Of a stretch of 64,000 bases of DNA, positions 19,642-20,769 are shown piece by piece. This stretch comes from Escherichia phage Ecwhy_1. A program made the translations under genes and the position numbers. The notes below the pieces were generated by a model. It did no database searches and was not told the origin of the DNA. It saw only the letters and a list, made by a program, of their open reading frames with translations. Where the stretch lies: sequence record MH791411.1, one strand, 5' to 3'. The stretch's first letter is position 1, and each line of letters starts with the position of its first letter.

Positions 19642-20769
19642 ATGACAATTTCATTCAACAATGGGTCAGGTGGTTCATGTAATAATTCTGGCATCAAAAG
19701 TTTAGTTATTAACGCTGCTGGACATTTAATTGTAACCTATTCCGACAATACAATCCAAGACCTAGGTCTAGTGGTTGGACAAAATGGTGCTAACGGTAGA
19801 AACTTTTATCCAAATGAGATAGGTTTTGAAGTTCCTAATGAACTCTTCCGTGTTGGTGAAGAACTAGGGTGGTGTTATCTTAGTCTTGCAAATGGCACTA
19901 GTACTTTATATTTCAAATCAAACGATGCACAAGAAGCAATTAGTACTTGGAACCGTGTAGAGTTTGGTAAAGGCGATACTGGTGAAACTGGTAAACCATT
20001 CCACATTGACAGTTCTGGTACGGTGTTTCCAACAACTGGTCTTTTCAATAATTACACATTCTATAATACTGAAGATGGTAAATTATATTTCTATCAAAGC
20101 GTAACTGCAACATGGAGTGATGGTATTCCTTTCCGTGGTGAACAAGGTCTACGTGGTCGTTTCCATATTGATAGTACTGGTAGTCAATTCCCAAGCATTG
20201 ATAATCTACCACAAGATTATTGCTTCTATAACACGACAGATGGTAATTTGTATTATGTCGATATCGTAACTACATCATCAACCCCAACTAAAGAGTGGAG
20301 TGCTGGTATCTTATTCCGTGGAAAAGACGGTGAAGAAGGTAAGCAAGGTGAACAAGGTATTCAGGGTGAACCAGGTAAAGATACAGTTGTTATCATCAAC
20401 ACTATTGATCATTCATGGACTAACGCATTGTTAGTTATTGGTACATGCCCTGCTGGATACCTAGTAACTAATATCGAAGTTGATATTAACCAAGCATATG
20501 ATGAACCAGTAAATGAAATGTTTGTACGTTTCGGTGGTGAAGCACAAGAAGATATTGGTGGTACTGTAATTGCACCTGTTGATTATTTCGATATCAACCG
20601 CAAAATGCGTTACATTGTTAACGAAACCAACCACGAAGTATCAAGTAAAGATGAAATCATTTCTTGTGTATTCAATGATTCCGTAAACAACAGTTCATTT
20701 GGTGAAATGAAGATCGTTTGTACTTTATCATGGCAAGCACCTATTCAGCCTATTCAAGATAACATTTAA
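19642..20769 (+). CDS. Tail fibre protein with collagen-like Gly-X-Y repeats
   Basis: Collagen-like tracts FRGEQGLRGR and FRGKDGEEGKQGEQGIQGEPGKD. ATG at 19642 has an AGGGA RBS; the track's start at 19606 is TTG. Confidence 0.6.
   Translation: MTISFNNGSGGSCNNSGIKSLVINAAGHLIVTYSDNTIQDLGLVVGQNGANGRNFYPNEIGFEVPNELFRVGEELGWCYLSLANGTSTLYFKSNDAQEAISTWNRVEFGKGDTGETGKPFHIDSSGTVFPTTGLFNNYTFYNTEDGKLYFYQSVTATWSDGIPFRGEQGLRGRFHIDSTGSQFPSIDNLPQDYCFYNTTDGNLYYVDIVTTSSTPTKEWSAGILFRGKDGEEGKQGEQGIQGEPGKDTVVIINTIDHSWTNALLVIGTCPAGYLVTNIEVDINQAYDEPVNEMFVRFGGEAQEDIGGTVIAPVDYFDINRKMRYIVNETNHEVSSKDEIISCVFNDSVNNSSFGEMKIVCTLSWQAPIQPIQDNI

What the first reader, a model, noticed from the sequence alone, without database searches (positions are those of the whole stretch)
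19642..20769. Collagen-like Gly-X-Y tracts in a tail fibre protein
The tracts FRGEQGLRGR and GKDGEEGKQGEQGIQGEPGKD form short collagen-like triplet runs separated by fibre sequence, suggesting a trimeric fibre stalk with flexible collagen-like joints.
Basis: seen in the sequence. Interest (0 to 1): 0.4.

Follow-up and report, generated by a model that had tools for sequence, protein, structure and literature searches.

The report
Collagen-like jumbo-phage fibre protein
A conserved virion protein of a giant E. coli phage carries four short collagen-type (Gly-X-Y) stretches that alternate with small beta-sheet modules and end in a jelly-roll head; this is a real but fairly ordinary way for phages to build a three-chain fibre.

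Summary
ORF 19642-20769 (375 aa) belongs to an Asteriusvirus-type jumbo myophage, 99.9% identical to Escherichia phage vB_Ec-M-J. It has four in-phase Gly-X-Y runs of 3, 3, 3 and 7 triplets, not two. Shuffling never gave a 7-triplet run (0 of 20,000).

Across orthologues down to 45% identity the Gly columns are nearly invariant while X and Y vary freely. Most length changes are whole triplets.

The runs separate an N-terminal hairpin unit, three beta-modules (modules 2 and 3 are duplicates) and a C-terminal jelly-roll. The fold neighbours of that jelly-roll that I could check are trimeric phage virion proteins.

One positional orthologue replaces modules 2 and 3 with 62 uninterrupted triplets. 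Another keeps only the N-terminal 113 residues.

Orthologues were detected in phAPEC6 and CBB virions, but not in RaK2.

Best reading: a homotrimeric virion fibre with short collagen-type connectors, probably anchored by its N-terminus. Trimerisation, triple-helix formation and position on the virion are all inferred. The "flexible joints" idea has no support.

This is a new member of a known kind, and interest is modest.

The parts
19642..20769 (+). Whole gene: 375-aa virion fibre protein (orthologue of phAPEC6 gp253, CBB_228, RaK2 gp062, vB_Ec-M-J EcMJ_309), stop codon included
   Evidence: ORF. phrog_13565 'tail protein' at E 7e-213. 100% identical to EcMJ_309 'tail fiber protein'. Single copy in 71 phage records.
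19642..19776 (+). N-terminal region, aa 1-45: conserved MTISFNNGS..C.N peptide plus a beta-hairpin unit (IKSLVINAAGHLIVTYSDNTIQDLGLVVG) that runs straight into run 1. Candidate virion-proximal anchor.
   Evidence: Most conserved segment (mean identity 0.78). Retained in P0056, P0057 and P0061, whose downstream parts differ. The hairpin+GXY unit recurs up to 19 times in unrelated large proteins.
19777..19803 (+). Gly-X-Y run 1, aa 46-54, GQNGANGRN (3 triplets)
   Evidence: Gly kept in 100/92/100% of orthologues; the loss is a whole-triplet deletion.
19804..19971 (+). Beta-module 1, aa 55-110 (FYPNEIGF...WNRVEFGK)
   Evidence: AF2 block pLDDT about 71-87 with strands at 59-61, 78-81, 88-92 and 103-107. 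Two modules of this type flanked by GXY runs occur in P0061.
19972..19998 (+). Gly-X-Y run 2, aa 111-119, GDTGETGKP (3 triplets)
   Evidence: Gly kept in 100/100/88%.
19999..20136 (+). Beta-module 2, aa 120-165 (FHIDSSGTVFP...YTFYNTEDGKLYFY...W...PFR)
   Evidence: With its run, 47% identical to module 3 (BLASTP E 1e-15). pLDDT about 84-88. The same module flanked by GXY occurs in P0075 and P0084.
20137..20163 (+).
   Evidence: all three Gly kept in 100%. P0053 and P0054 carry one extra triplet here.
20164..20319 (+). Beta-module 3, aa 175-226 (HIDSTGSQFP...YCFYNTTDGNLYYV...W...LFR); duplicate of module 2
20320..20382 (+).
   Evidence: Weak Pfam Collagen match at aa 227-245. Length varies among orthologues: 6 or 7 triplets in most, 5 in P0055, and two runs of 3 in the sub-clade with the one-residue deletion.
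20383..20766 (+). C-terminal jelly-roll domain, aa 248-375: candidate distal head and trimerisation/registration domain

Best explanation
The gene encodes a conserved structural protein of RaK2-like jumbo myophages. It most likely assembles as a parallel homotrimer about 30 nm long.

Four short Gly-X-Y runs form collagen-type triple-helical connectors of roughly 2.6, 2.6, 2.6 and 6 nm. They alternate with an N-terminal hairpin unit and three small beta-modules, giving a beads-on-a-rod stalk that ends in a C-terminal jelly-roll head.

Runs of three triplets are too short to fold on their own (established knowledge of collagen peptides). The flanking modules and the C-terminal jelly-roll would therefore hold the three chains together and in register.

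The conserved N-terminus most likely docks the fibre to the virion, with the jelly-roll distal. Because every junction has the same three-chain geometry, the Gly-X-Y runs also serve as points where modules can be swapped.

Shown here: the periodicity, its conservation, the module layout, the natural module swaps, the fold of the C-terminal domain in a monomer model, and the presence of orthologues in virions. Inferred: trimer formation, triple-helix formation, orientation, and attachment site (short baseplate fibre).
For: - Periodicity far above chance. Gly columns are invariant while X/Y entropy is high, and most indels are whole triplets.
- X positions are rich in D/E/K/P and Y positions in Q/K/D/P, a charged, proline-poor composition.
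- P0057 sits at the same syntenic position (ClpA-like, 501-aa protein, T4-gp15-like, NUDIX, three minus-strand genes, this gene). It keeps the N- and C-terminal domains but has 62 uninterrupted triplets (Pfam Collagen) in place of modules 2 and 3.
- P0061 has two module-1-type modules between GXY runs plus the same C-terminal domain. P0056, also syntenic, keeps only aa 1-113 and then an unrelated C-terminus. Together these point to an N-terminal anchor with exchangeable distal parts.
- In the AF2 monomer model the modules reach pLDDT 80-93 and the GXY runs fall below 50, as expected for segments that need partner chains.
- BFVD neighbours are collagen-repeat and C1q-domain phage proteins.
- Virion mass spectrometry: phAPEC6 gp253, 14 peptides, 65.6% coverage (PMC7247149). 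CBB_228, 13 peptides, 44% coverage (PMC5259590).
- The gene lies among tail and baseplate genes. No terminator-like site separates it from the downstream tailspike and fibre genes.
- CBB has six short baseplate fibres of 28.6 +/- 2.7 nm. My rough length estimate for this protein is about 29 nm.
- In 145 distant relatives, 95% of 511 hairpin motifs run directly into in-phase Gly-X-Y. This count is partly circular, because the search profile included run 1.
Against: - There is no direct evidence of trimers or of triple-helical conformation.
- Three of the four runs have only three triplets, and the Pfam Collagen score is below threshold.
- Some orthologues break run 4 by a one-residue deletion or lose its last Gly.
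- RaK2 gp062 was not detected in virions (PMC3622015).
- The C-terminal domain is well conserved across phages of nine host genera, which is unusual for a host-specific receptor-binding tip.
- Its best fold matches include capsid cement proteins, so the opposite orientation or a capsid/sheath location is not excluded.
Confidence: 0.65

Rival explanations
1. Same collagen-like trimer, but it is a capsid or sheath appendage ('hair' or whisker, or a decoration fibre). In this reading the C-terminal cement-like jelly-roll anchors it at a three-fold site and the N-terminus points outwards.
Confidence: 0.2
2. The Gly-X-Y runs are not triple-helical. They are simply Gly-rich, disordered linkers between independently folding domains of a protein that may be monomeric.
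For: AF2 gives pLDDT below 50 for all four runs, while each module folds confidently as a monomer. Three runs are only 9 residues long. Pfam Collagen is sub-threshold. Run 4 is interrupted in a sub-clade.
Against: Flexible linkers do not keep Gly strictly at every third position while X and Y vary freely, and they do not change length mainly in units of three residues. One positional orthologue fills the same place with 62 perfect triplets. Relatives that share the modules pass Pfam Collagen. Low monomer pLDDT is expected for obligate three-chain segments.
Confidence: 0.12
3. Chance or compositional artefact: a Gly-rich protein happens to show triplet spacing.
For: Runs of three triplets do occur by chance. 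About 34% of shuffles had at least one.
Against: No shuffle in 20,000 reached 7 triplets, and only 2 in 20,000 had four runs. All four runs sit at the same alignment positions in the full-length orthologues found, though a few lack one run as a 3-triplet stretch.
Confidence: 0.01

Closest known systems
EPclA-D, collagen-like side-tail-fibre proteins of E. coli O157:H7 prophages (Ghosh et al. 2012, PMC3368898)
   Same: These are phage fibre proteins of E. coli phages with Gly-X-Y domains capped by non-collagen N- and C-terminal domains, and they were shown to be trimers with a real triple helix. Col lengths differ in multiples of three. EPclB has two Col domains split by a non-collagen repeat (Pf2). 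Col domains can be as short as 27 aa.
   Different: No PfN (PF08400), PfC (PF06820), Pf2 (PF03406) or coiled-coil region was detected here. The runs here are much shorter (9, 9, 9 and 21 aa) and there are four of them. The intervening modules and the C-terminal jelly-roll are unrelated. The host virus is a lytic jumbo myophage, not a lambdoid prophage.
Collagen stalk + C-terminal C1q/TNF-type jelly-roll head proteins: Bacillus anthracis BclA, complement C1q, phage PRD1 spike protein P5 (from memory)
   Different: There is no Pfam C1q or TNF hit. The best fold matches are phage cement and fibre jelly-rolls, not C1q. The collagen part here is broken up by beta-modules instead of being one continuous stalk.
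Staphylococcus phage 80alpha upper baseplate fibre FibU (gp68) (PMC7048315)
   Same: A baseplate-associated protein of about 390 aa with an N-terminal anchoring domain, a short predicted collagen-like stretch (aa 178-208) and an uncharacterised C-terminal domain. It is non-essential for infectivity.
   Different: FibU's N-terminus is BppU/Ig-like, and only two subunits per fibre were seen in the map. It has one collagen stretch, not four, and there is no sequence relationship.
Trimeric phage jelly-roll virion proteins: KHP40 cement gp16 (7dou), Pam1 cement (7eel_H), Ralstonia GP4 virion-associated protein (8h89_J), roseophage R4C tail fibre (8gtc_S, probably its 'foot' domain)
   Different: Sequence identity is 5-12%. 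None of them is preceded by Gly-X-Y repeats in the deposited chains. Their functions differ (capsid cement versus fibre tip), so the fold does not settle the function.
Collagen-like repeats in Streptococcus phage proteins: the S. thermophilus antireceptor variable region and the prophage hyaluronidase HylP (from memory; PMC7533335 turned up in the search but was not read)
   Same: Short Gly-X-Y repeats embedded in host-recognition or tail proteins. They have been discussed as boundaries of exchangeable segments.
   Different: Different proteins, different phage types and Gram-positive hosts. The comparison was not tested here.

Membership tests
Collagen triple-helix repeat (Pfam PF01391) | Uninterrupted (Gly-X-Y)n in the sequence | tested here: met
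   Runs of 3, 3, 3 and 7 triplets.
Collagen triple-helix repeat (Pfam PF01391) | Score at or above Pfam's gathering threshold (27.2 bits) | tested here: not met
   16.8 bits, E 0.006, aa 227-245 only. The positional orthologue P0057 does carry PF01391.
Collagen triple-helix repeat (Pfam PF01391) | Evolutionary signature: Gly invariant, X/Y free, length changes in triplets | tested here: met
   Exceptions are a G4G-type interruption and a terminal Gly-to-Ala change in two sub-clades.
Collagen triple-helix repeat (Pfam PF01391) | Three chains forming a triple helix (CD, melting, trimer mass) | not testable with these tools
EPcl prophage collagen-like tail-fibre proteins | PfN (PF08400), PfC (PF06820) or Pf2 (PF03406) domains flanking Col | tested here: not met
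   No such Pfam hits at E <= 0.1. Family definition taken.
C1q/TNF-head collagen proteins (BclA, C1q type) | C-terminal jelly-roll directly after the Gly-X-Y stretch | tested here: met
   AF2 model of aa 248-375 with pLDDT about 90. Jelly-roll matches. BFVD neighbours are annotated C1q or collagen.
C1q/TNF-head collagen proteins (BclA, C1q type) | Sequence membership of the C1q (PF00386) or TNF families | tested here: not met
Phage capsid cement/decoration proteins (KHP40 gp16 type) | Jelly-roll fold similar to solved cement trimers | tested here: met
Phage capsid cement/decoration proteins (KHP40 gp16 type) | Bound at capsid three-fold sites | not testable with these tools
   No map of this clade assigns the protein.
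Phage tail fibre (functional class) | Present in the virion | tested here: met
   Literature on orthologues: phAPEC6 gp253 at 65.6% coverage and CBB_228 at 44%. RaK2 gp062 was not detected.
Phage tail fibre (functional class) | Attached to the baseplate or tail, and binds the host surface | not testable with these tools
   Only gene neighbourhood and database names are available.

The most novel reading that the evidence does not exclude
Short Gly-X-Y runs could act as universal, register-setting three-chain couplers for a large, uncatalogued set of small beta-modules: the hairpin unit, the 'FHID...YNTxDGxLY...W' module and the module-1 type. None of these modules is in Pfam, yet the profile search found 1,113 cluster representatives at E <= 0.001.

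Fibres would then be built, lengthened and recombined module by module at collagen junctions. The natural variants P0057, P0061 and P0056 at this very locus illustrate this.

A further possibility is that the duplicated modules 2 and 3 assemble across the three chains into beta-prism-like, lectin-type sugar-binding sites along the stalk. That would make the stalk itself an adhesin. The only hint is a non-significant similarity to bulb-type lectins.
Probability: 0.25. Interest if true: 0.5.

Novelty: new member of a known kind. Interest (0 to 1): 0.3.

Why it matters
Collagen-like stretches in phage fibres have been known for decades, so the finding does not change the field. It does three useful things.

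- It gives a concrete structural hypothesis (a trimeric fibre of about 30 nm) for a core virion protein of RaK2-like jumbo phages. That protein is abundant in two virion proteomes, but none of the phAPEC6, CBB, RaK2, PhiKp24 or fEgEco12 papers mentions collagen.
- It offers a candidate for the six short baseplate fibres seen by EM in this clade.
- It shows natural module-for-collagen swaps at one locus. This supports the idea that Gly-X-Y runs are safe splice points, which is practical for engineering fibres of different length or tip in therapeutic jumbo phages.

Tried and rejected
- **Linked-trimer AF2.** I built 3 x aa 160-375 joined by (GGGGS)12 linkers, with 8 orthologues treated the same way.
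- **Sequence search of the PDB.** Neither the protein alone nor the profile of A1 gave a significant match. Weak hits to ATP-grasp enzymes, beta-amylase, a 'Tribody' and bulb-type lectins (E 0.008-0.8) were rejected as chance.
- **NCBIfam.** Only negligible matches to streptococcal Scl1/Scl2 (12.5 and 10.2 bits against cut-offs of 325 and 400).
- **Pfam on distant relatives.** The beta-modules have no Pfam family; only Collagen is recognised.
- **Paralogues in the window.** None found. The only other run of four or more in-phase Gly (GNLGVTGTLGVTGAT in the 1,644-aa fibre) is hydrophobic and not collagen-like.
- **Promoter/terminator scan.** No more sites than in shuffles.
- **Literature.** I found no high-resolution baseplate map of Asteriusvirus, Alcyoneusvirus, Mimasvirus or Eneladusvirus in the held library. 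The PhiKp24 paper does not mention collagen.

Full report
**Identity of the window and the gene**

Bases 19000-24000 are 99.9% identical to Escherichia phage vB_Ec-M-J (378 kb, genus Asteriusvirus) and 79-81% identical to phAPEC6, SP27 and related phages. The window therefore comes from a RaK2-like jumbo myophage.

The finding's coordinates are exactly one ORF: 19642-20769 on the + strand, 375 aa. There is an AAGGGA ribosome-binding motif 8-9 nt upstream of the ATG. The ORF finder's TTG start at 19606 is an artefact, because all orthologues begin MTIS.

The protein is 100% identical to EcMJ_309, annotated 'tail fiber protein'. It matches phrog_13565 'tail protein' end to end (E 7e-213). It is a single-copy gene in 71 phage records infecting Escherichia, Klebsiella, Salmonella, Erwinia, Yersinia, Cronobacter, Serratia, Pectobacterium and Xanthomonas.

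**The observation**

Both quoted tracts exist: GEQGLRGRF at aa 166-174 and GKDGEEGKQGEQGIQGEPGKD at aa 227-247, the latter being seven perfect triplets.

In 20,000 residue shuffles, no sequence reached a 7-triplet run, and only 2 had four runs of at least three triplets.

The stronger test is evolutionary. In an alignment of 24 orthologues (45-80% identity) plus one 35% relative (A1):
- Gly is kept in all sequences at 11 of the 16 Gly columns, and in 67-92% at the other five.
- X and Y columns mostly carry 1.5-2.8 bits of entropy.
- Most length differences inside the runs are whole triplets: one fewer in run 1 of P0039 and P0055, one fewer in run 2 and one more in run 3 of P0053 and P0054, and one fewer in run 4 of P0010.

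X positions favour D/E/K/P/A and Y positions favour Q/K/D/P/N.

There are two exceptions, both in run 4. One sub-clade has a one-residue deletion giving G-E-S-I-K-G, a 'G4G'-type interruption of the kind known from non-fibrillar collagens. The Mimasvirus-like sub-clade ends the run one triplet early (…GSDAN).

Pfam's Collagen model sees only run 4 and scores below threshold (16.8 vs 27.2 bits).

**Anatomy**

The runs divide the protein into a regular layout.
- **aa 1-45:** a very conserved N-terminal peptide plus a beta-hairpin unit (IKSLVINAAGHLIVTYSDNTIQDLGLVVG) that flows directly into run 1.
- **Three beta-modules of about 46-56 aa**, each followed by a run. With their runs, modules 2 and 3 are 47% identical (BLASTP E 1e-15). 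Module 1 shares only the pattern.
- **aa 248-375:** a C-terminal domain that follows run 4.

An AF2 monomer model built on A1 gives pLDDT of about 71-93 for the modules and the C-terminal domain, and below 50 for all four Gly-X-Y runs. That is what one expects if the runs need partner chains, although it is equally compatible with disorder.

The R4C paper describes nine fibre proteins forming three trimeric fibres, each with rod, knob and foot domains (PMC10276861). By chain length and name, 8gtc_S appears to be that fibre protein.

**Natural variants at the same locus**

Three relatives are informative.
- **P0057 (416 aa)** lies in the same gene order: ClpA-like protease, 501-aa structural protein, T4-gp15-like protein, NUDIX, three minus-strand structural genes, this gene, then fibre genes. 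It keeps the N-terminal region, module 1 and the C-terminal domain. In place of run 2 through run 4 (that is, modules 2 and 3 and their runs) it has 62 uninterrupted Gly-X-Y triplets that hit Pfam Collagen.
- **P0061 (328 aa)** has the same ends, with two module-1-type modules each bounded by Gly-X-Y runs.
- **P0056 (270 aa)**, again syntenic, keeps aa 1-113 at 74% identity and then switches, right at run 2, to an unrelated DUF4376-like C-terminus.

So modules and collagen are interchangeable stalk elements, the exchange points lie at the Gly-X-Y runs, and the N-terminus is the constant part.

**Wider distribution**

A profile search of 1.84 billion cluster representatives found 1,113 proteins at E <= 0.001.
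- The most widely shared piece is the hairpin unit plus its Gly-X-Y run (profile positions about 14-54). It is repeated up to 19 times in proteins of 300-1,900 aa, such as P0062 and P0074.
- The module 2/3 type, again flanked by Gly-X-Y, occurs in P0075 and P0084.
- The C-terminal domain is rare.

Of the 145 newly retrieved relatives, 141 have at least one run of three or more triplets, with a median of five runs per protein. Runs of 3-5 triplets are the commonest. Of 511 hairpin motifs, 483 (95%) lead straight into in-phase Gly. This is partly circular, because the profile included run 1.

Pfam recognises only Collagen in these relatives. The modules themselves have no family.

**Virion evidence from the literature**

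- phAPEC6 gp253, the 81%-identical orthologue, was found in purified virions with 14 peptides and 65.6% coverage (PMC7247149).
- CBB_228 was found with 13 peptides and 44% coverage (PMC5259590).
- RaK2 gp062 was predicted to be structural but was not detected (PMC3622015).

The phAPEC6, CBB, RaK2, PhiKp24 and fEgEco12 papers do not mention collagen.

The clade shows six short baseplate fibres, 28.6 +/- 2.7 nm in CBB, and in some members 119-nm hairs on the sheath and capsid whose genes are unknown.

**Mechanism proposed**

The protein is most likely a parallel homotrimer. The four Gly-X-Y runs form short collagen-type triple-helical connectors. At 0.286 nm per residue (textbook value) they would measure about 2.6, 2.6, 2.6 and 6 nm.

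Adding roughly 3 nm per module and 4 nm for the head gives about 29 nm. This is a rough inference and was not measured on a model.

Nine-residue runs cannot be stable on their own (established knowledge from collagen peptides). The flanking modules and the C-terminal jelly-roll would have to supply trimerisation and register, as C-terminal domains do in C1q and BclA and as PfC does in EPclA.

The constant N-terminus in P0056, P0057 and P0061 argues that it is the virion-proximal end. The length and the gene's position at the head of the tailspike/fibre gene string suggest the short baseplate fibre.

The C-terminal domain is about 65% conserved across phages of nine host genera. That argues against a strain-specific receptor tip. 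It fits better with a conserved ligand or a structural role.

**Rivals**

- **Capsid or sheath appendage anchored by the cement-like C-terminus.** This keeps the collagen reading but reverses the orientation. The cement-protein fold matches and the high MS coverage favour it. P0056, the 119-nm hair length and the presence of orthologues in phages not reported to be hairy argue against it. Probability about 0.2.
- **Non-helical Gly-rich linkers.** Compatible with the AF2 confidence pattern, but not with the strict period-3 conservation, the triplet indels or P0057. Probability about 0.12.
- **Chance.** Excluded.

**Comparison with known systems**

The nearest characterised relatives in kind are the EPclA-D prophage side-tail-fibre collagens of E. 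coli O157:H7. They are trimeric, truly triple-helical, vary in Col length in multiples of three, and EPclB has two Col domains split by a Pf2 repeat. None of their defining domains is present here, so this protein works like them but is not a member of that family.

The collagen-plus-C-terminal-jelly-roll arrangement parallels BclA, C1q and PRD1 P5 (from memory), without sequence membership. Staphylococcal phage 80alpha FibU is a comparably sized baseplate protein with one short predicted collagen stretch.

**Verdict**

The trimeric fibre reading is well supported indirectly, the 'flexible joints' idea is unsupported, and the 'tail fibre' location is plausible but unproven.

This is a new member of a known kind (phage collagen-like fibre proteins). 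It has some added value as a structural hypothesis for an unassigned core virion protein of RaK2-like jumbo phages, and as an illustration of Gly-X-Y runs as module junctions. Interest 0.3.

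Noticed in passing
window 20784-22925 (+) and 22940-23839 (+): The 713-aa colanidase-type tailspike (phrog_6117, full length) and the next 299-aa virion protein begin with the same 11 residues, MAVFSNLEGTM, and stay similar for about 25 aa. 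This looks like a shared N-terminal docking peptide for two different distal proteins.
   Followed up: no
window 20784-22925 versus L001 9785-10867 + 10872-11927: In the 99.9%-identical phage vB_Ec-M-J the tailspike is annotated as two CDSs, and the aligned stretch is one base longer (5,002 vs 5,001 nt). In this window the gene is one intact 713-aa ORF. Either the published record or this window carries a 1-nt indel here.
   Followed up: partly
window aa 135-203 of the target protein (about 20044-20250): The profile of the family gives weak, non-significant matches (E 0.07-0.4) to bulb-type (beta-prism II) mannose-binding lectins. The matches span the second half of module 2, run 3 and the first half of module 3. 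The lectin's sugar-binding Q/N residues are not conserved. Probably chance, but it suggests that three chains could build a beta-prism-like module.
   Followed up: partly
window 23958-28892 (+) and 29042-34741 (+): There are two very long (1,644 and 1,899 aa) Thr/Gly/Ser/Ala/Val-rich repetitive 'tail fiber' proteins directly downstream. They are candidates for the long hairs or whiskers described on 121Q, phAPEC6 and CBB, whose genes are unidentified.
   Followed up: no
window 1524-11525 (+): A 3,333-aa ORF, annotated 'virion structural protein' in vB_Ec-M-J. It probably corresponds to the 382-kDa gp245 detected in phAPEC6 virions. It lies just upstream of a ClpA-like protease gene on the opposite strand.
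   Followed up: no
P0062 (1,149 aa) and P0074 (340 aa), distant relatives: The N-terminal hairpin + Gly-X-Y unit of the target occurs as a tandem repeat (up to 19 matched stretches per protein among the hits, 15 in P0062). P0062 also carries a Listeria-Bacteroides repeat near its C-terminus (Pfam). It seems to have a hydrophobic N-terminal segment too, judged by eye from the sequence. It may therefore be a cell-surface protein rather than a phage protein. The unit has no Pfam family.
   Followed up: partly
window 17304-19532 (-): Three conserved minus-strand genes (366, 202 and 165 aa) are transcribed divergently from the target and have no Pfam hits. Two have orthologues detected in phAPEC6 virions (gp250c, gp251c) and two in CBB virions (CBB_231, CBB_230). 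They keep their position next to the fibre gene in every related locus examined, so they may be its partners or attachment site.
   Followed up: no
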